This document shows, one piece after another, positions 4,351 through 60,878 of a stretch of 64,000 bases of DNA. The translations under genes were made by a program, and so were the position numbers. Source of the DNA: the human T2T-CHM13v2.0 reference genome, Homo sapiens. The notes under the pieces are model-generated. The model saw only the letters and a program-made list of their open reading frames with translations. It ran no database searches and had not been told where the DNA came from. Position 1 is the first letter of the stretch; each line of letters opens with the position of its first letter. The stretch is taken from the NCBI GenBank assembly GCA_009914755.4, contig CP068257.2:31264001-31328000 (forward strand). Direction: 5' to 3'.

Positions 4351-5810
4351 AATAGCCAGAGCAAGCCTAAGCACACACACAAAAAAAAGCTGGAGGCATC
4401 ATACTACCTGACTTCAAACTATACTATAAGCCTATAGTAACCAGAACAGCATGATACTGGCACCAAAATGGACACATAGACCAATGGAATAAAATAGAAA
4501 ACTCAGAAATAAAGCCACACACTTACAACCATCTGATCTTCGATAAGGCCAACAAAAACAAGCAATGGTGAAAGGACTTCCTATTTAATAGATGTTGCTG
4601 GGATAGCTGGCTAGCCATATGCGGAAGATTGAAACTGGACCCTTACATATCACCACATACAAAAATTAACCCAAGGTGCATTAAAGATTTAAATGTAAGA
4701 CCTCAAACAATAGAAATCCTACCAGAAAACCTAGGAAATACCCTTCTTGACATCGGCCTTGACAAAGAATTTTTGGCCAAGACCCCCAAAACAACTGCAA
4801 CAAAAACAAAAATTGGCAAGTGAGATGTAATCAAACTAAAGACATTGTGCACAACAAAAGAAACTATCAATAGAGTAATGGACAACCTACAGAGGGGGAG
4901 AAAATATTCACAAATTATTCATCTGACAAAGGTCTAAAATCCAGAATCTATAAGGGACTTAAATCAACAAGCAAAAACCAAATAACCGCATTAACAGATG
5001 GGGAATGGACACAAACAGACACTTCTTAAAAGAAGACGTGCAAGTGGCCAAAAAACATATGAAAAAATTCTCATCATCACTAACCATCAGAGAATGCAAA
5101 ACCAAAACCACAATGAGATACCACCTCACACCAGTCAGGATGGCTGTTACTAAAAAGTCAAAAACCAACAGATGCTTCTGAGGCTGTGGAGAAAAGGGGA
5201 CAGTTATACACTGTTGGTGGAAAGGTAAATTGGTTCAGCCACCGTGGAAAGCAGTTTGGAGATTTCTCGAATAACTTAAAACAGAGCTATCATTCAACCC
5301 AACAATTCCATTAGTGGGTATATACCCAAGGGAAGATAGATCATTATACCAAAAAATATATATACTCATATGTTCATCGCCATGCTATTCACAATAGCAA
5401 AGACATGGAATCAACCCAGGTGCCCATCAATAGGCAATTGGATGAAGAAAATGTGGTACCATGGAATACTATGCAGTCATAAAAAGAATGAAATCATGTT
5501 CTTTATGTCAACATGGATGGAGCTGGAGGGTGTGATCCTAAGCAAACTAATGCAAGAACAGAAAACCAAATACTACTTATTCTCATTTATAAGTGGGAGC
5601 TGATCATTGAGCACATAGGGACATAAACATGGGAATAATAGATGCTGCAGAATACTAGAGGGGAGAGGGAGGGAGGGGGCATGGGCTGAAAAACTACCTA
5701 CTGGGTGCTATGCTGACTACCTGGATGAAATATACCCATGTCGCTAACTTGCACATGTACCCACCCCTATATCTAAAATAGAAGTTGAAGGTTTAAAAAA
5801 AAAGAAGAAA
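4351..5810 (+). mobile_element. L1 (L1PB/L1MA-like) 5'-truncated copy: ORF2 C-terminal region, 3' UTR and poly-A
   Basis: Continuous match to the L1 ORF2 3' region (AGCTGGAGGCATCATACTACCTGACTTCAAACTATACTATAAG ... CCATGGAATACTATGCAGTCATAAAAAGAATGAAATCATGTTCTTTATGTCAACATGGATGGAGCTGGAGG) and to the 3' UTR. A perfect 16-bp TSD AAAGAAAGGGGTTGAG sits at 4335-4350 and 5811-5826. Confidence 0.85.
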
Positions 5811-18454: not shown

Positions 18455-18745
18455 AATAATGGAAGACATTTATTGAGGGCTGACTGTGTGCCCTCACAGT
18501 CAATTCTCACAGAGAATCTGTGGGACATGTTTTCCCATGGCTTATCTTCTTTAATCCTCAGAACAACTGCAGGAAGTTATGCTATTGATGTATGTTGCAG
18601 ATGAGGAAAATAAGGCTTAAAGCATTAAATAACTTGGCCCAAGTTTCCATAACAAATAAGTAATAGATCTGGGACTTGAACCCAGGCAGTCTTTAGACCA
18701 CTAAGCACTCTGACTTCCTAATCATAGCACTTTGTAAAGCCAAGG
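18455..18745 (-). mobile_element. MIR SINE, antisense
   Basis: ATTTATTGAGGGCTGACTGTGTGCCC...CAGATGAGGAAAATAAGGCTTAAAGCATTAAATAACTTGGCCCAAG...GGGACTTGAACCCAGGCAGTCT matches the MIR reverse complement (CTCAATAAATG ... CAGATGAGGAAACTGAGGC ... GGGATTCGAACCCAGGCAGTCTG). Confidence 0.65.
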
Positions 18746-20529: not shown

Positions 20530-20800
20530 TAGGTGCAGATGGCTGGAGTTCTGGGTGCTGTGTTAGAAAACACTTGTGCTTTGAAGCCAGAGATGCCTGA
20601 GTGAGACTCTCTCCTATCAGCCGTTTGTCTTTGGATGTGTTACTTAATTCCTGAGTTTCAGTTTCCTCATCTTTTAAAAGAGACTAATAATAGTACCTAT
20701 CTCAAAGGGATATTGAGAGGATTTTAAAAGATGATATATAAAATCCTTAGCAAACATCTGACATATGTTAGATCTCTGATGGTCAGCACTGGAATGTGGA
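20530..20800 (+). mobile_element. MIR SINE
   Basis: GCCAGAGATGCCTGAGTGAGACTCTC...TGTGTTACTTAATTCCTGAGTTTCAGTTTCCTCATCTTTTAAAAGAGACTAATAATAGTACCTATCTCAAAGGGATATTGAGAGGATTTTAAAAG follows the MIR consensus. Confidence 0.65.
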
Positions 20801-21488: not shown

Positions 21489-22282
21489 AGGGGGGAAAGA
21501 AAGAGGGATTAGATAGACAGTAGGTAGGTTCCTGCTCTTCTTCCCCATGCTTTCTTCCTGCCATGGCTGGGGACTAGCGAGGAGAAGGAAGTGTGACTGT
21601 CCCACTGCAGCATTCCCCCTGCTCAGAGCCCAGGAGGAAGGGAACTCACTTGCAGCTTTGCATAAAGAGAGTCTGCCAGCTGCAAGCCAAGTTCTGGAAC
21701 ACAGCTTCCGGGCAGCGGCCTCTGGAATGCTTTCTGGCTCTCTCTGCAGACTCAGCCTCCTGCAGCTCCTTGGCTAACCTGGCAGGAACCTCAGCCCAGG
21801 CCAAGGAGGCTGCAGCCAACCCGAGCCCCCTGATGGGCTTCCACCCCGACCTCCACAGCTGCTGGTGAGATTTGGCTCAGCCCTTAGTCATGACCCTTCC
21901 ATAGACTGACTTCTTTAAAATTCACGAAGCCTTTTCTTTACAATTATGATTATGCCTGTCCTGTGTGCAGGCACCGAAGGAGGAGGAGATACTAGGAATG
22001 AAAGGTTAAGGGACAGAAAAGGAACATCCAGTCCTCCTGTAAAAGCTATCTCTCTGTGTTGTCCTTGGACTTGAGTCTTCCTGTGGCCTGTGACTAATGC
22101 TCACATCCCTGAAATTTCCCAGGACAGAAAAGACCCAATCACACAACCCCAGAAGAAAAACACCAACAAAACCAATTTTCTCTACAAACGTGCATGTGAT
22201 AGCTCCGACCAGTTCTCTAAGCCATTCCCATCAGCCCAGGGTTCACAATCCAGCCCTCGGCTGGATTTCAAAGGTGGGAACA

Positions 22283-22600
22283 GGCTGGGTTCATGTCTGT
22301 AATCCCAACACTTTGGGAAGCCAAGGTGGAAGGATCACTTGAGGCCAGGAGTTCCAGACCAGCTTGGGCAACATAGCGAGACCCTGTTTCTAAAACAAAA
22401 ACAAACCCAAAAAACAAAAAACAAAAATTAGGCAAGCTTGGTGTTACACGTCTATAGTCTCAACTACTTGCTTGAGGATGGGAGGATCACTGGAGCCCAG
22501 GAGTTGAAGGCTGCTGTGAGCTATGATGGTGCCACTCCAGCCTAGAGCCTAGGTGACAGAGAAAGACCCTGTCAAAAAAAAAAAGGGGGGGGGGTGGGGG
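22283..22600 (+). mobile_element. Alu SINE (AluJ-like, diverged), full length
   Basis: GGCTGGGTTCATGTCTGTAATCCCAACACTTTGGGAAGCCAAGGTGGAAGGATCACTTGAGGCCAGGAGTTCCAGACCAGC ... CAGCCTAGAGCCTAGGTGACAGAGAAAGACCCTGTCAAAAAAAAAAAG plus a G-run. Confidence 0.9.
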
Positions 22601-23341
22601 GAGCAGACAGACCACACTCAATTCATCAAAAGGAGAATTGCTACTTTTCATTTGTTTAGCTACAGTAGAAAAAGTCTAATCACATAACTTTCCCTGGGGC
22701 TGCGGAAGATTTCTCCTTTGAGGCAGTTCCTCACAGTAACACTGTAATCGAAACAAAGCCTGCTCTTCTCATGCGGAGCATATTTTCTCCTGGAGAACCA
22801 CAACTGGGTTTGCAAGGGTAGAGCCAGGCTCCTTCCCATAACATGCTTGCCTTGCCTGCCTGGGGTTGAACTTTTTTTTTTTTTCCACAAGAGAGCCATA
22901 AACACATAGATACCAAAGAGTTAATTTGCGTTTTTTAAACCTTCTTCCCAAAGCCTGCTCTCATTCCTGCATAAAATCCCCATGTCCAGACATCAAATCA
23001 GTAAGCCCTGTTGCCTGTCAGAGAATACAATGTCAGGCCATTAGTATGTTAATAAGTCCGGAGGGCGACAGGTGGCCTACTAGACAGCTCAATTAAGCTG
23101 CTCATTAAACACACGCTAACGAACAGCCGAGGCAGGGCCTGAACAGCACCATTCTGTAATGACATGATGTCAGAGTGAACAAATGAGGAAAAATAACAAA
23201 AACATTACAGCAGGGACAGACGCCACTAATAAGGACCCCTCGCACTACATCAGCCCGCAAATCAATGAGTCACCGGGATCAAAAAACTCGACCCAACATT
23301 CTCAGGAGACTGAGTGCAGCAAGATTTTTTTGGTCACTACT

Positions 23342-23362
23342 AAAAAAAAAAAAAAAAAAAAA
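23342..23362. repeat. (A)21 homopolymer
   Basis: Read directly. Confidence 0.95.
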
Positions 23363-24127
23363 AGCCCAAACCCAACCCTAAAATTATTGCAAAATATCGC
23401 AAATTAACTGCTTTAAAAAAATGAAAAAGAGCAAAGTTTATTTGACACGGAACTAATCACGAAGTCTGAGAAATCTGTATTGCTGGGTTTAAATGAAAAT
23501 CATTATTTAATGGGATCATCATTTACATTTGATTGGCATCCTCTTTTTATAAGCCCACAGGTTTGAACCATTTCTCTGCTCTGGTACCCAGGCAGTAGAA
23601 GGGCACAGTGGAACGGAAGGAGCGTGTAGCCAAATTTCTTAGGTGAAGATTCTGCTTGTCATTATTTTAAGAGAAGGGACTTCCAGCAGCTGCTAGAGGT
23701 TTCTCTCATTTTCAAGTAAGGCGCTTCCTGAATAATAAAAAATCAAACCTCCGCCAGGCATGGCTCTGACATTGGAGACATATATTGCTAAACTAATAGG
23801 CTGGCTGGCCATTAGGAGATCACGACCTCGGCTCTTATCTTTTGTCAAGTTAACAGCTGACACCTCCTCTGCATGTAGACCTTCTTCTAGGCCTAAGGTA
23901 GATGCTGCTCCTCTAGCTAAGCTGGTGAGCTGAAGGCAGGCAGGAAACCAGTGCAGTTGGGCTTAAGGAGCTGATGCAGAGTCCCTCGGAAGCATGGTTC
24001 TTTCCATATTGGTTGAACTTTCTCTGCACAAATCTATGGTCCAAATCTATGAGTGAGGCAGATAAGGCTCTCACCTGAGTGACCCTGAGCAGGTCCCCTT
24101 AATCCCTGGCTCTGTTTCCTTATTCAT

Positions 24128-24428
24128 ATTTATTTTATTTTTAGAGACAGAGTCTCTCTCTGTTGCCCAGGCAGGAGTGCTGTGGCGTGATCATGGCTCA
24201 CTGTAACTTCAAACTCCTGGGCTCATGTGATCCTTTGGCCTCAGCCACTGGTGTAGCTGGGACCACAGGCATGTGCTGCCATGGCTGGTTAATTTTCAGA
24301 ATTTTTTTTGTAGAGATGGGGTCTCGCTATGTTGCCCAGGCTGGTCTTGAACTTTTGGGCTCATGTGATCCTCCTGCCTCTGCCTCCCACAGTGTTGGGA
24401 TTACAGGCGTGAGCCACTGCACTCAGCT
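24128..24428 (-). mobile_element. Alu SINE (AluJ-like), antisense
   Basis: TTTAGAGACAGAGTCTCTCTCTGTTGCCCAGGCAGGAGTGCTGTGGCGTGATCATGGCTCACTGTAACTTCAAACTCCTGGGCTCATGTGATCC ... GGGATTACAGGCGTGAGCCACTGCACTCAGC. Confidence 0.9.
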
Positions 24429-25385
24429 CTTTATTTATAAAATGTGATTGGACTGGGATTTCGCCTTGCCTTTTCCATTCTAGAAAGGACTTCAGCACAA
24501 AATAAGAGTAAAATCCTCATGGAATTTGCCATCTGGTTGAAAAGAAAAACTAGTGGCTGAAAATAGTCACGAAGAATTCAAGAACACAGTATAGTGTGTT
24601 ACCTAGAATTATAAGAAGAATTTAAAAAAGGGAGACATTGGGGATTTGTAAGGGCTCCAGGCCAATTCCCTGAAATCAGCTGGGCCTGAGTGGGTGGAGC
24701 AGACGCAGGGAGAGGGCGGAGCTTCTGCCGACCTTGCAGAGTGAGTAGGATGGAAGGGCAGGAGGAGGTCCAAGCGACAAAGGCAGGCATGAGCATGGGG
24801 CCTGCATGCGTCTGGGTGTATGTGGACAGTGGGATGGGAGCTACCTGTGATCAGACCTGCTACATGGAGGCAAGCTGGGGGGTGCAAAGCCAGAGGAGAC
24901 AGATGTGCAGGGGCAGAGGCAAGAGACATTTGGTGAGTGCAGAGGCCACAGCAATCTGGCTTTTTATCTCAGTGACTCTAAGGTCTGTCTTCAGGCTGAT
25001 GGATGTGACAGCATGCCATCACTCGACAGATATTTACTGAGGTTCCCTCTTTGCTTGAGGAACTGTGGGGAATACAAAAATCAGAATATTCTGGACCTGC
25101 CCTCAGGGAGTTTATAATCGAGTCATTCCTTCAACTAATATTTCTTCAAGGACTTCTCTTTGCCAGGCTCTGCTAAGAATAATGGCAAATAATGGTTTCT
25201 TGGTCCCAGCCCTCGTGAGTTTATGGTCAAAGAGAAGAGACAGGCATATTATTTGACTAACTCCATTTCAAGTCAGACTGTGATGAATGTTGTGGCCAAG
25301 GTGGGAACAGAGACTTGTAGGAACACAGATAAGGGTGTGCTTAAGTCTGTCTGTGAGAATCACAGAAACTTCCAGGCACCTTCAA

Positions 25386-36982: not shown

Positions 36983-37495
<513 letters not shown>

Positions 37496-38086
37496 GCCAC
37501 CCACTTCTTGAAGGTGATTTTTTTACATAGTGCCACCAAAACTGGTAGGCGTGGAAACAGGAGTTTACATCTTCTGAGAGCGTCCAACAGCCTCGGCTTC
37601 AGGCGCCTTATCTTATTTAATCATGACCATATTACCTCTGTTCTGGGCTGAATTGTACCCCCAAAATTCATATGTTGAAGCCCTAATTCCCCATTACCTA
37701 GGATTGTAACCATAACAGGAGATATGGTTTTTAAAGGGGCAATTAAGTTAAAATGAGGTCATATGAGGGGACCCTAATCCAATATGATTGGTGTCATTAT
37801 GAGAAAAAAAATTAGGACACACGCATACACAGAGGGAGTCCATGTGACAGCACAAGAAGGTGGCTGTCTACACCCAAGGTTAGAGGCCTTGGAAGAAACC
37901 AGCCCTGCTGACACCTTCATCTCAGGTTTCTAGCCTCCAGAATTGTGAGAAAATAAAATCTGCTGTTGAAGCCACCCAGTCCGTGGTATTTTGTTATGAC
38001 AGCCTTAACAAAATCATCCAACCTCCATTTTACAGATGGGTAAACCAAGGCTTAGCCAAGTGAGTTAACTGACCCAATGGTATATA

Positions 38087-44378: not shown

Positions 44379-45230
44379 CCCGACTCTGCCTGTGTGCCCA
44401 GGGAAGTGGGGTCAGAGTCTTTTTCCTTTTTCTCAGAACCGGTGTATGTGAGGTATGGGCAAGGTCAGTGGAACAGGAAAAAGTCATCGTAAAAGACACG
44501 CGGTAGTGAAATTTGAGGTCAGAAAGAATGCCGAAAACAGTGAGGAAGCAAACCAAAATTTGAGCTCAGAATTGCTACCTCTGTTGTCCTTGGAAAGTTG
44601 AAGGATATTAAACTCTGAAAATGAGTTACCCGAAAGAATTCCTCCAGCTTTCTAAATAAAGGAATTGCGCCTTTGCTCAGGCACCTTTGCAACCTTAATG
44701 AGCTACTGCTGTCTTACTTGAGAACACCAGAGGGCGCTCAAGAGAGGAGGAGGCGACTGGCGACTATCAAGGTATTCTTGTATTTGTCTTTACACCGCCC
44801 TGGTCCCGAGGGTGAGAAGAAAGAAGACAGATTCAACTGTCTCTCTTTCATCTCAGCCCCTCATTAACCAACTTTGGTTCCTCTGCCATTCTTCTACTCA
44901 AAGAGCCTCGGCAAAACTTCCTGACACTGGAGCTAAATAAACCTTCGCCACGGGGAGACCGGCTCGCCGAAAGGGCTGAATCTTGGGTGTCTTTGTATTC
45001 TCAGCCCCTTGGTGCTTGAGAGGGAGATTTTGATTTGAAAACAAGCCCTGGAGAGGGATGCTAAGTGATCTCTCAAGGCAAGGCCTATGATTATTGCCTT
45101 TGGTAGTGAGTTTAGCGACACAATAATGGAAAGTTTGTTGGACCCCAAATCAGGCTCTAAGAAGTCTCAGTTTTGCCGTAACTACCTAATTAATGGGACT
45201 CAGATGCTCATCTGTAGACTTAGGTGGACT

Positions 45231-49552: not shown

Positions 49553-51094
49553 TGCACGCTAATGGTAGTTCTTTCAGGCAACTGGACGTCTCTGCACATA
49601 GCAGGCGCTCAAGGGATATGGACTTTGACTGCTTCCATTGCCTACTCATGAGACCACCCTGTTCTATTACAGGAAGGTGGAATAGTCTCATGGTTTAGAA
49701 CATGGACTTTGGAGCCACGCTGCTGAAGTTCACAACCAGCCTGGGTGAACTTGGGCACGTGACTGAACCTCTCTGTTCTGGTTCCCTGACCCATAAAAAT
49801 GGGAGTGATGATAGCACTTGCTTCACAGAGTTGTTGAGAAGTTTGCATTAATCAACATCTCTAAAGCACTTAGGAAAGGCCTTGCTGTATGACAAGGACC
49901 ATCATTTGATATGTGGTTATAAGAGGTTTTTTAATACTTGGACATTTTACTCTCAATAAATATTTGATTTTTATTTTTAGGAGGCAAGACTGGGAAAGCA
50001 TTAGAAGCTAGCTGCTTGGAGGCCTAAATCCTCTAACTTCTCTCAAAATTTCTTAAATTTTTAAAATATATCAGCTGGTACCTTCAAGGCCAGATGTGAA
50101 AGTTATTTTATGATGGGAGCATCAGCTATCTGGTGTAAGAGCTGAATAGCTCTTAAGAGAAGCAAACAGGGTTGGAATCCAAGACTGACCCCTGATCTCA
50201 AGTTTTCTACTTCCCCCACCTCTTTGTCATAACTCAAGAATTAGTGGAGAAAAGAAAAGCATCCTTCATAAGCTATGATTATTAGAACAGCAAAGCCAAG
50301 AACAGTGGCCATTTAATGAGCACATACTACGTGCTCTAGGCCATGCTCAGTACTTTACGTAGGTTCTATCCTAGGCTGGGTTTCCCAGGAGCCCCAGAGA
50401 CAAAGTTCATGTGCAAGTCATTTATGAAAGATAAGCTCCCAGGGAAAAGAGGTGAGTGAGTGAAGAAGCAGGACACGGAGAGGGAGGAAACCGAGCAAAT
50501 GTATGATCTCAGGCAAAATCGCTCCAAGGCAACTGTCACCTGATCCTGCAGGGGACAGTGGAGTGTAAATTACCCCAGAGTTATGCCCAGTAGAAGCAAG
50601 GAAGCTGGGCTTTTCTTACTTGCATGCCATCAGTTAGAGGATCAGGCCCACCTTGGGGGAATACAAATTCCCAGGCACTTCCAGCTCCACGTCTTTGAGT
50701 AAAGTGGGGCTCCAGTAGACCAAGGGAAGCCACAGGTGCTGGCTGTAGGTATGGGAAGCAAAACGAATCTCAAGAAGAAGAGTGCAAAAAAATGAGAAAA
50801 AGGGGTCCAAGGAGATCTCAAAGGAGAAGGAGTGAAGAAGCCCAGTCCTTCCACATAAGTGTGACTTGGCTCCAAAGAGAAAATCTGGAAGCCATGATCT
50901 TGGCCTCCATCAGCTATCATCAACAAATCGCAGGGGAGGCCATGTGGCCCATGGTTGTGAGTCATCCCTCGAGTAAGATTCAAATCCTCCTGCTCCATTC
51001 ACTGACTGTGTGAACTTGGTGATCTCATTGACCTCATTTTCTGTATCTGTAAAATTGAGACAATAATAGAACTTGTATCAAAGTGAGTTGTTCT

Positions 51095-57359: not shown

Positions 57360-57705
<346 letters not shown>

Positions 57706-59559
57706 ACTACATTTTGACATAAAGTCCGAAGACGGGACACAGGTCAGCACTTTTCATCCTAAAGGGTTATCAAAAGACATCAACTTGTATAAAAACTGGT
57801 GTGAAAATCGAGTGATGTTTTAGTTGATGTCATATGTTTTGTTCTCTCATGTGTCCAGATCCCGGAATAGGCTGAGAAAAATAGAACCTGGAGTGTAAAA
57901 AGAAAAAAGAAACATGTTAGTGGATATAGGACATTTTGCAGCTCTCAATTTGATCTGTTCCACAGTCGTCACACAGGATGAGAAGATTGTAGGAATGTGG
58001 AAAAAATTAGAATAACCTTGCATTTCGAGTTATGGAAAAGAAACTTTTAAGCTTTTAACATTTCTGTGAGAACAACATGAACCTGACAGCTAAATCACTG
58101 AAATATTGATCACATTACAAATAAAAATTCAAACAAATTCGTTTCAATTGAAAGAGGAAAAACATTGATACTACTACTGCTCATTGGTATGGTGATATGC
58201 AAATGTGGACTCCAATAAAGGAATTTGTCTAATTTTTGGACCACAATTATGTGAGGGAATATCAAAATGTTTATAATTTGCAACAACACAAGGATGTAGA
58301 TTTTGTCTGATTTTGTTAATCTCTGAAAGGCTTATTTTTGATGTGAATTAATTGGATAGTCTAATATGCTCCCTTTCAGCCCACCATAAATATCTGTGAA
58401 TTAAATTATGTAAACAGTTTCCTCAAAAGCAGAAGCATTGCTAACTCCCTTCCCCCGCATTAAATAGTTCTATATGAGTTGACAGAAGGAGTTGGCTGTG
58501 TGACCTTTCGCAATGAACGGGGAACATAGCCCCCTCTGGCCTGAATCTGAGAGAAGCCCCTTCCCAAAGCCCTTATGAGATGATATACCAGAAAACAACA
58601 CATCTGACCAAGAAGTCTCTGAAGTTGCAGCCTTTTGTATTTACACTTTTGAGCTATCTCCATTGTGATGCAAATCTCGATTTTCAATCAAAATTGGCTA
58701 GAAAAAAAAATCTTTCTCTGGAAACCGTTGTAGGAAGCACGTAAGCCTAAATCTTAAATTTTCTCTGTTCTGACTTCCTATTAAGCCACATAACAAATGT
58801 TATCAAACACATACACCTTTTGCAACTGCTGATTGAAAACTCAACCGTGTCAACTAGCATTTTTAACTAACTATAGTTTTAGTCTTAAAGGGTGCTGAGT
58901 TTATGCGTTATAAATGAACACCCCCCTCCCTTTTTTTTTCTCTCTAATTTGGGTGCTCACGTCAAAAGCATCTAAAAGCATTTTAACTTTTGTCGACTGT
59001 CCCAATTCAAGTTTGTTTGAGAGAGTCCTCCCTTCTTAGCTTGGATCCTTTATATAAGTCCAGATGAATAAAATAAAATGAAATGCAAAAGGAAGGCATC
59101 ATTAATGGCTTGAAGGCGTCCCACTTTTATTTTCTTGTATTTTAAGAGCTGAAGTTGGAAATATGGAATCCTCCCAAGCCGCTCAGAAAGTTTGAAGACA
59201 CAGGGGGCAGGGACCCAGACTTATGGAAGTCTCCGCCTCAGGCTGAAGGTTTGTGGGCGTCTGTGTGTGCGTGCGTCTGTCTTTTACTGTACCCTTCAAG
59301 ATCGAGTTCTGAAGGAGCATTTCTCCTGCCAAAATACACACACAGCCTGGGATTAAAAGGGCTGAAACCTACCAGCAAGTTCTTAACGCCCTCCCACAAT
59401 CATTAGACCAAATCCACCATCATTCCAGATTCATTTTTCCCTTATTCATCTGTCCAACTAATTCCTGCCACATTCACCAGGCTTATATCTTAATCTTTTC
59501 TGTTACATAGAGAATACATAATGAAAAGCTGCATTTTCTGGGTACATGCACACATTTGG

Positions 59560-59735
59560 AGCGGATGAACCATATGTGAAGCGACATACAATGCTGAATG
59601 CCGGCTGAATGGCGTCCAGCGCTAAAAACACCGCGAGCGCAGGAACAAAAAGCCGGCGAACAAGAGCCAGCGCCAGGCTTGCCTCTGCTGGAACACCAGG
59701 GGCTTCGCCGCGAAAACATGGGTATAATTTCACTG
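59560..59735. promoter_or_regulatory. CpG-dense core (about 14 CpG in 150 bp) followed by a TATAA motif; candidate promoter or orphan CpG-island-like element (hypothetical)
   Basis: GCGGATGAACCATATGTGAAGCGACATACAATGCTGAATGCCGGCTGAATGGCGTCCAGCGCTAAAAACACCGCGAGCGCAGGAACAAAAAGCCGGCGAACAAGAGCCAGCGCCAGGCTTGCCTCTGCTGGAACACCAGGGGCTTCGCCGCGAAAACATGGGTATAATTTCAC. Local observed/expected CpG is about 1, against roughly 1 CpG per 100 bp elsewhere in the window. Confidence 0.3.
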
Positions 59736-60878
59736 TTTTCACTCACACAAGCTGTGGGAAAGGAGTCACCATCTGATGTTTGATTGTGTGGGATATGTTT
59801 TTGGCAGTGGCCTTGTATTCCTCATTGACAAAAAAAAAGAAAAGAAAGAAAGAAACAAGAGAAAAGGGGCAGAGATGGAGGGGGGAGGAAAATAAAAAAG
59901 AATAGAGCTACATTTGCTGTTTTCAATTTGCAGTCTGGGGGACAGGCACAGCTGACAGTTCTGACCAGTGGCCACCTGAAAATCAGGGCCAGGGCCTGGG
60001 GACTGTCCCCTCTGCCTCCATCCCCTGGGCCTCCCTTTATGCCGAGGGACCAGGAGGGGACTTTTCTCCATCCTCCCCCGTCGGCTGGTTAACTTACGAC
60101 TGAGCTGTGGGGCTGACGTTTGCCTGATTTAATAAAGCCTTTTATCCAAGGTAGCGGCTGGGAAGGCAGGGTCCTGACAGCCCAGAGGGGGAAAGGGCCC
60201 AAGGCTCACAAGCAGACACTTTCCGGAGCCGGTGAGGAAAAGAGTGAAGCTTCAAAAAAACTCCCTGGCAATGCGTCTGGGGCTGAAGCCAGGTGGTTTC
60301 TCCCGTGGTTTCTGGCTGGAGACTGGCAGGGGTGTTAGGTTTACACCCTGGGTCTCTGCCCCAACCGAAGGTTCTAGAAAGAGATATGCTGCTCTTTGTC
60401 ACCATCTTTTCCTCACTCAGGAATGCCAGATTTAGCAAGTAAACATACAGGATGCCCAGCTACATTTGGATTTCAGAACAACAAGTACTAAGCCGTGATG
60501 TGCTGTTTCCCCAAAAGCCAATTTTCACTGAGTGTCTTGCACGTTATCTGACAATGCTACTCCCACGCCACCAGGCTTCCTGGTCCAGCCACCCACCTCC
60601 CCTCACCTGTGGCGGGTGGGCAGGGGGGCGGTGATCAACAGCCTCCTCTGCCTGCATCTCAGGATGTTAAGAGGATAATGAGAGAATAGATGGGTAGCTG
60701 CTTTCCAGAAAGGTCATTAATTAGCCCTGCTGGTTAGCATGTGGTTCCAGTGCCCCAGCTGTGCTAAAGGCCTTCCTCTTAGCATCCAGTTCAAACCAGG
60801 AGACATGACCAATGAGACTAGAGAGAGTTTGGTGTCATTTCCTCCTGGTGCCCAGAGCCCCTTCTCTGATGGGTTTCA

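What the first reader, a model, noticed from the sequence alone, without database searches (positions are those of the whole stretch)
22900..24120. CpG-retaining, TAAT/ATTA-motif-rich unique block between two Alus: candidate conserved non-coding element
No recognisable repeat covers about 1.2 kb here.
- CpG density is roughly 2 per 100 bp, about twice the window background (for example CACACGCTAACGAACAGCCGAGGC, GGAACGGAAGGAGCGTG, TCACGACCTCGGC).
- Motif clusters typical of deeply conserved developmental enhancers are present: CAATTAAGCTGCTCATTAAAC, AATCATTATTTAATGGGATCATCATTTACATTTGATTGGCATC.
- The block also contains an (A)21 tract at 23342.

CpG retention together with homeodomain-type sites suggests a functionally constrained regulatory element rather than neutral DNA.
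Basis: inference. Interest (0 to 1): 0.5.

Follow-up and report, generated by a model that had tools for sequence, protein, structure and literature searches.

The report
Conserved non-coding element between two Alus
About 450 bases at the left end of the flagged block are 94-98% identical to the matching site in a distant non-primate animal while the flanks have diverged, so this is an ordinary conserved non-coding element, probably an enhancer; the other two-thirds of the block could not be tested.

Summary
The CpG excess is modest: 1.72 per 100 bp against 0.85 for non-Alu background, the 93rd percentile. It is carried almost entirely by 22886-23336 (2.44 per 100 bp, o/e 0.50, 97th percentile).

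One metagenome contig (L001, species unknown) is a collinear non-primate ortholog. It lacks the left Alu.
- Flanks: 46-64% identical.
- 22886-23336: 424/451 identical.
- 22904-23306: at least 95% identical.
- 22960-23209: 245/250 identical, no indels.
- Shared CpGs: 6 of 11 in the core, 0 of 8 in the flanks.

Substitutions show no codon periodicity. There are no protein homologs, no Rfam hit and no unusual RNA folding energy. The core is therefore a constrained non-coding element. Enhancer function is inferred only, because TAAT and TGACA motif enrichment is weak (p about 0.03 each).

My alternative, a young retrocopy (T13 tail plus an 11-nt direct repeat), was refuted. Homology runs straight through the supposed boundary.

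L001 ends at the A22 tract, so 23366-24120, including the second motif cluster, is untested. Its CpG level is unremarkable.

This is a known kind of element, of low interest.

The parts
22288..22590 (+). Old Alu forming the left border. It is absent from the ortholog L001, so it is a primate-lineage insertion.
   Evidence: BLAST to the Alu consensus. In the alignment, L001 12277-12292 bridges window 22282-22620.
22661..22809 (.). It is followed by a dip to 48% at 22810-22859.
   Evidence: Identity profile in 50-column windows.
22872..22884 (.). T13 run. It is TTTT in L001, so it is a lineage-specific homopolymer expansion and not a retroposon tail.
22886..23336 (.). Conserved non-coding element core. 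424/451 positions are identical to L001, 22904-23306 is at least 95% identical, and 6 of 11 CpGs are shared.
22960..23209 (.). Most conserved stretch: 245/250 identical with no indels. The longest exact run is 60 bp (23006-23065).
23090..23110 (.). First quoted motif cluster, CAATTAAGCTGCTCATTAAAC (two TAAT-type cores). It is identical in L001.
23160..23172 (.). 13-nt perfect palindrome TGACATGATGTCA (two inverted TGACA half-sites of the MEIS/TGIF/PBX type). It is identical in L001.
   Evidence: The assignment to TALE factors comes from my knowledge of their consensus sites.
23342..23363 (.). (A)22 tract at the right edge of the core. It is not present in L001, which has a T/C-rich run ending in C15 at this point and then stops.
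23366..24120 (.). Unique sequence of unknown status, including the second motif cluster at 23498-23540. CpG is 1.32 per 100 bp (about the 82nd percentile). No ortholog, no protein homolog and no Rfam hit were found.
24138..24417 (-). Old Alu forming the right border.
   Evidence: SRP and mir-3135 sub-threshold Rfam hits also fall here.

Best explanation
Window 22886-23336, with a weaker shoulder at 22661-22809, is a conserved non-coding element held under purifying selection since the split between primates and a distant non-primate vertebrate. That constraint, not young age, is why methylation-prone CpGs survive there.

It most likely works as a cis-regulatory element: an enhancer in which closely packed sites for homeodomain (TAAT), TALE (TGACA) and E-box (CAGGTG) factors must keep both their sequence and their spacing. 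This would explain the absence of indels.

Shown: conservation, non-coding nature and shared CpGs. Inferred: the enhancer role, the factor classes and the target gene.

My confidence that the core is a constrained non-coding element is about 0.9. My confidence that it is an enhancer is about 0.55-0.6.
For: - **Ortholog found.** An exact-match scan found one metagenome contig, L001. It aligns collinearly with window 21885-23336 and lacks the primate Alu.
- **Identity profile.** Flanks are 46% (21850-22282) and 64% (22601-22885) identical. The core is 94% identical (424/451), 22960-23209 is 98% identical, and there are no gaps across 22960-23309. The probability of this identity under 78% identity is about 8e-21.
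- **CpGs.** 6 of 11 are shared in the core against 0 of 8 in the flanks.
- **Not coding.** The 25 substitutions fall 10/8/7 over the three codon phases. The only frame open in both species has 3 synonymous and 8 non-synonymous differences. Six-frame searches found no protein homologs.
- **No structured RNA.** There are no Rfam hits, and the fold z-scores are +0.94 and -1.48.
- **Motifs.** TAAT/ATTA occurs 8 times against 3.6 expected, and TGACA/TGTCA 4 times against 1.2 expected (p about 0.03 each). All of these cores and the CAGGTG E-box are intact in L001.
- **Literature.** CNEs are described as TAATTA-enriched, often flanked by homopolymer runs, and mostly acting as developmental enhancers (PMC5728398).
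Against: - There is only one ortholog, and its species is unknown, so the depth of conservation cannot be dated.
- No chromatin, reporter or expression data are available.
- Motif enrichment is marginal. With 94% identity, intact motif cores are expected anyway.
- AT content of the core (55%) is not above the window average (57%), unlike the typical CNE pattern.
- No developmental gene or any exon was found in the window, so a target is unknown.
- An exapted ancient repeat as the origin cannot be excluded without a repeat library.
Confidence: 0.6

Rival explanations
1. The conserved core is part of a conserved transcript rather than a DNA-level regulatory element. It could be an exon or untranslated region of an mRNA or long non-coding RNA, or a regulated 'poison' exon.
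For: - High, indel-free conservation over 400 bp also occurs in the untranslated regions of developmental regulators (my knowledge).
- A conserved ATTAAA lies at 23104-23109.
- One frame (23168-23335) is open in both species.
- On the minus strand, the human T22 run followed by AG/TAG resembles a splice acceptor.
Against: - The splice-site-like features, both the T13/T22 pyrimidine tracts and the donor-like GT, are not conserved in L001.
- Conservation continues 230 bp past the ATTAAA at the same level.
- The shared open frame has 3 synonymous and 8 non-synonymous changes, and there is no protein homolog.
- No exon with a Pfam domain was found anywhere in the window.
- There is no Rfam family and no excess folding stability.
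Confidence: 0.15
2. The core is a constrained cis-element of another type, such as a silencer, an insulator or boundary element, or a chromatin-organising element, rather than an activating enhancer.
For: Conservation alone does not tell these apart. The review notes that the reason for extreme CNE conservation is unresolved.
Against: The best CTCF-like stretch (GGCCACCTGTCGCC, 23067-23080 on the minus strand) mismatches the consensus at several key positions, by my inspection against the remembered consensus. The motif content is of the homeodomain, TALE and E-box type usual for enhancers.
Confidence: 0.15
3. CpG retention reflects youth, not constraint. On this view the block 22875-24010 is a recent L1-mediated retrocopy on the minus strand, such as a 5'-truncated processed transcript, with an A13 tail and an 11-bp target-site duplication.
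For: - An exact 11-nt direct repeat, GGTTGAACTTT, abuts the T13 run at 22864-22874 and recurs at 24011-24021, in the geometry expected for a retrocopy. It is as long as the true Alu target-site duplications recovered by the same script.
- All 21 CpGs lie inside 22929-23987.
- Long pure homopolymers are present.
Against: - L001 aligns without a break across the supposed left junction and has TTTT where human has T13.
- The flanks outside the 'insert' are collinear.
- Conservation is graded, 98% in the core against 46-64% in the flanks, which an insertion does not explain.
- There is no polyadenylation signal before the tail.
- Across the 18 homopolymer runs scanned, about 0.2 chance 11-mers are expected, and a second such 11-mer occurs at 57386/58862.
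- The predicted empty site was not found in the metagenome or genome collections, which is uninformative.
Confidence: 0.03
4. The whole block is neutral unique DNA, and its CpG and TAAT excess is chance.
For: The block as a whole is only at the 93rd percentile for CpG and the 84th for TAAT. The right two-thirds are unremarkable.
Against: The core's identity to L001 is far above its flanks (p about 1e-20), and its CpGs are shared. This reading remains plausible only for 23366-24120.
Confidence: 0.05

Closest known systems
Vertebrate conserved non-coding elements (CNEs) as catalogued in ANCORA, CONDOR, UCNEbase and VISTA (review PMC5728398)
   Same: - Hundreds of bp of indel-free, near-identical non-coding sequence between distant species, with sharply less conserved flanks.
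- TAAT-type motifs.
- Homopolymer runs at the borders.
- No exon nearby.
   Different: - Only one pairwise comparison, with an unidentified species.
- AT content is not elevated.
- Membership of a CNE cluster around a developmental gene could not be examined.
Ultraconserved elements sensu Bejerano et al. 2004 (at least 200 bp, 100% identical in human, mouse and rat)
   Same: Very high identity: 98% over 250 bp.
   Different: The longest perfect run against L001 is 60 bp, so it is not ultraconserved with respect to that species. Mouse and rat could not be compared.
UCNEs of UCNEbase (at least 95% identity over at least 200 bp, human-chicken)
   Same: The numerical threshold is met against L001: 403 columns at 95.0%.
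   Different: L001 is not known to be chicken or any non-mammal. Its partly alignable flanks suggest a mammal at roughly rodent-like distance (inference).
Processed retrocopies / L1-mediated insertions
   Same: Homopolymer tail-like runs and an 11-bp direct repeat in the right geometry.
   Different: Homology with the ortholog crosses the junction and the tail is absent there, so the resemblance is coincidental.

Membership tests
Conserved non-coding element (CNE) | Sequence identity between distant species far above that of the flanking DNA, over at least 100 bp | tested here: met
   22886-23336 is 94% identical and 22960-23209 is 98% identical, against 46-64% in the flanks of the same collinear alignment.
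Conserved non-coding element (CNE) | Not protein-coding | tested here: met
   Stops occur in all frames in human. Substitutions fall 10/8/7 by codon phase. The shared open frame has 3 synonymous and 8 non-synonymous changes. No protein homologs were found.
Conserved non-coding element (CNE) | Single-copy, not an interspersed repeat | tested here: inconclusive
   There is no similarity to the rest of the window and no match to Alu, MIR or L2-end consensus sequences. No full repeat library was available, so an exapted ancient repeat cannot be excluded.
Conserved non-coding element (CNE) | Lies in a cluster around a developmental regulatory gene | not testable with these tools
   The genomic position is unknown, and no exon with a Pfam domain lies in the 64 kb.
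Ultraconserved element (Bejerano 2004) | At least 200 bp of 100% identity in human, mouse and rat | tested here: inconclusive
   The longest exact run against L001 is 60 bp.
UCNE (UCNEbase) | At least 95% identity over at least 200 bp between human and chicken | tested here: inconclusive
   403 columns at 95.0% against L001, but L001 is not identified as chicken.
Developmental enhancer | Reproducible tissue-specific reporter activity, or enhancer chromatin marks | not testable with these tools
   No functional genomics data or assay is available here.
Developmental enhancer | Cluster of conserved transcription-factor sites | tested here: inconclusive
   TAAT occurs 8 times against 3.6 expected and TGACA 4 times against 1.2 expected (p about 0.03 each). 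All are intact in L001, but that is expected at 94% identity.
L1-mediated retrocopy | Poly(A) tail and target-site duplication, with homology to the pre-insertion site breaking at the junctions | tested here: not met
   The ortholog aligns through the junction, and the T13 'tail' is TTTT in L001.
CpG island | GC at least 50%, CpG o/e at least 0.6, length at least 200 bp | tested here: not met
   The core has GC 44.6% and o/e 0.50. The densest 330 bp has o/e 0.66, but the GC content of that sub-window was not measured separately.
Structured non-coding RNA (Rfam) | Match to a covariance model, or folding energy beyond shuffles | tested here: not met
   No Rfam hit falls in the block even at E up to 1, apart from a 14-bit chance hit. 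Fold z-scores are +0.94 and -1.48.

The most novel reading that the evidence does not exclude
L001 could come from a non-mammalian vertebrate. The contig shows no SINE, MIR, poly(A)-tailed retroposon or L1 domain in 13 kb, and nothing but the element and about 750 bp around it aligns to human. In that case the core would be a UCNE-grade element (at least 95% over 400 bp) conserved for more than 300 million years. Such extreme constraint is still not explained by ordinary enhancer models.
Probability: 0.15. Interest if true: 0.35.

Novelty: already known. Interest (0 to 1): 0.15.

Why it matters
It shows that CpG retention in a repeat-free stretch of primate DNA can flag real purifying selection, and it points to one candidate regulatory element for a reporter assay. 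Elements of this kind are catalogued by the thousand in vertebrate genomes. This one is almost certainly already visible in standard conservation tracks, so it opens no new question.

Tried and rejected
1. **Retrocopy hypothesis.** It rested on the T13 tail, the 11-nt repeat GGTTGAACTTT at 22864 and 24011, and the A22 tract. It was rejected by the ortholog alignment. Scans for the predicted empty site found nothing.
2. **Reaching orthologs through spurious ORFs in the protein collection.** I used six-frame chimeric queries of 22886-23341, of 23366-24120 and of the L001 open frames. No hits were returned, so neither more orthologs nor the rest of the L001 contig could be fetched.
3. **Other DNA scans.** Genome contigs returned 0 for the second motif cluster. 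Three viral-contig scans returned 0.
4. **Naming the L001 species.** No hit was found to Alu, B1, B2, Can-SINE, MIR, Bov-tA, PRE-1, ID or CR1 hallmarks, to tRNA-like SINEs, or to Pfam domains in 149 open frames. The contig accession does not appear in the literature.
5. **Naming the locus.** 279 open frames of at least 60 aa gave no credible exon. Core 21-mers are not found in any paper.
6. **MIR at 24076-24125.** I suspected a MIR fragment by eye, but nhmmer with the MIR consensus does not support it.
7. **Homolog of the right part elsewhere in L001.** Only one weak, non-collinear hit was found.

Full report
**The sequence.** The window is primate-type DNA. About 10% of it matches an Alu consensus, and it also holds MIR, L2 and L1 fragments. 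The flagged block lies between a + strand Alu (22288 to about 22590, followed by a G-run) and a - strand Alu (24138-24417). The A tract is 22 A's at 23342-23363.

**Is the observation more than chance?** The interval 22900-24120 has 21 CpGs: 1.72 per 100 bp, o/e 0.37. The window as a whole has 0.96 per 100 bp and non-Alu sequence 0.85. 'About twice background' is therefore right, but it is only the 93rd percentile of Alu-free windows of that length.

The excess is concentrated on the left.
- 22886-23336 has 2.44 CpG per 100 bp (o/e 0.50, 97th percentile).
- 23366-24120 has 1.32 per 100 bp (o/e 0.28, about the 82nd percentile).

TAAT/ATTA occurs 18 times against 10.9 expected (p about 0.04). 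The block has no similarity to the rest of the window. It has no match to Alu, MIR or L2-end consensus sequences, although these found positive controls elsewhere.

**A rival I raised and then rejected.** CpG-rich unique DNA next to long pure homopolymers suggested a young retroposed insert. The 11-mer GGTTGAACTTT abuts a T13 run at 22864-22874 and recurs at 24011-24021. That is the geometry of a minus-strand L1-mediated insertion with a target-site duplication, and all 21 CpGs lie between the two copies. The same script recovered the true duplications of three Alus. Scans for the predicted empty site found nothing. The cross-species evidence below refutes this idea.

**Cross-species evidence.** An exact-match scan of metagenome contigs with CAGCTCAATTAAGCTGCTCATT returned one contig, Ga0065711_1041178 (L001, 13,026 nt held). 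It is a collinear ortholog from a non-primate.
- L001 11915-12995 aligns to window 21885-23336.
- The left Alu is cleanly absent.
- The T13 run is TTTT in L001, and the alignment runs straight through the supposed insertion junction.

| Window interval | Identity to L001 |
|---|---|
| 21850-22282 | 46% |
| 22601-22885 | 64% |
| 22661-22809 (shoulder within the above) | 70-78% |
| 22810-22859 (dip within the above) | 48% |
| 22886-23336 | 94% (424/451) |
| 22904-23306 | 95.0% over 403 columns |
| 22960-23209 | 98% (245/250) |

There is no indel across 22960-23309, and the longest exact run is 60 bp. Under 78% identity, the core's match count has a probability of about 8e-21. Six of the 11 human CpGs in the core are CpG in L001 too, against 0 of 8 in the flanks. 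Several of the 25 core substitutions are CpG transitions.

**What kind of constrained element is it?** It is not coding.
- Stops occur in all frames.
- Substitutions fall 10/8/7 over the three codon phases.
- The one frame open in both species shows 3 synonymous and 8 non-synonymous differences.
- Six-frame queries found no protein homolog.

There is also no sign of a structured RNA. The window gave no Rfam hits at gathering thresholds, nothing meaningful in the block at E up to 1, and fold z-scores of +0.94 and -1.48.

Splice-site-like features in human are not conserved in L001. These are the pyrimidine runs followed by AG on either strand. A conserved ATTAAA at 23104 is followed by 230 bp of equally strong conservation. 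This argues against an exon or a 3' end.

The core holds 8 TAAT/ATTA cores (3.6 expected) and 4 TGACA/TGTCA cores (1.2 expected). Two of the TGACA cores form the perfect palindrome TGACATGATGTCA at 23160-23172. There is also a CAGGTG box. All are intact in L001. The enrichment is marginal (p about 0.03 each), and intact cores are expected at 94% identity.

Published descriptions say CNEs are TAATTA-enriched, bordered by homopolymer runs, and mostly developmental enhancers (PMC5728398). On that basis, an enhancer with tightly spaced homeodomain, TALE and E-box sites is the most likely mechanism, but this step is inference.

**What remains open.**
- L001 ends in a C15 run 31 nt after the point matching window 23336, exactly at the human A22 tract.
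- That right part has no protein homolog, no Rfam hit, unremarkable CpG, and only one weak non-collinear similarity to L001.
- The species of L001 could not be named. It has no SINE, MIR or CR1 hallmarks, no tRNA-like elements, no Pfam domains and no literature mention. Its partly alignable flanks suggest roughly rodent-like or greater distance (inference).
- No exon was found in the window, so the locus and any target gene are unknown.

**Verdict.** This is an ordinary member of a well-known class, almost certainly already visible in standard conservation tracks. Interest is low.

Noticed in passing
window 37230-37510: A very young Alu, 98.7% identical to the AluY consensus, on the minus strand. 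It has a T26 tail (37242-37267) and a 14-nt target-site duplication GCCACCCACTTCTT at 37230 and 37496. It is far younger than the other Alus in the window (72-90%).
   Followed up: partly
window 58500-59900 and 44650-45000: Non-Alu stretches with higher CpG density than the finding itself: up to 4.2 CpG per 100 bp with o/e 0.75-0.8 near 59400-59900, and 3.3-3.6 per 100 bp near 44650-45000. They could be CpG-island-like or promoter sequence, or further constrained elements.
   Followed up: no
window 57386-58872: A T27 run at 57396-57422 (the tail of the minus-strand Alu at 57431-57701) has an exact 11-nt repeat, TTTAACTAACT, at 57386 and 58862. It may be chance, as the similar 22864/24011 repeat proved to be.
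   Followed up: no
window 24005-24114 and L001 9089-9199: A weak, non-collinear similarity (nhmmer E 0.001-0.02) between the right end of the block and a site 3.2 kb upstream of the conserved element in L001. It may be a shared ancient repeat. It does not match my MIR consensus.
   Followed up: partly
window 1-33032 (one open frame, not located): One of 140 open frames of at least 60 aa hits Pfam DUF4291 at E 2.3e-5, and another hits a putative RRM at E 4e-4. Both are marginal given 140 queries, and I did not trace which frames they were.
   Followed up: no
window 22872-22884 and 23342-23363; L001 12996-13026: In human the conserved core is bracketed exactly by two homopolymers, T13 and A22. 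In L001 these are TTTT and a T/C-rich run ending in C15. Low-complexity runs thus sit at the same borders in both species but differ in base.
   Followed up: partly
window 4572-5600, 25018-25311, 49681-49890, 18465-18693, 20576-20752: Ordinary old repeats: L1 ORF2-like open frames, an L2 3' end (minus strand) and several MIR copies. They served as positive controls for the consensus searches.
   Followed up: partly
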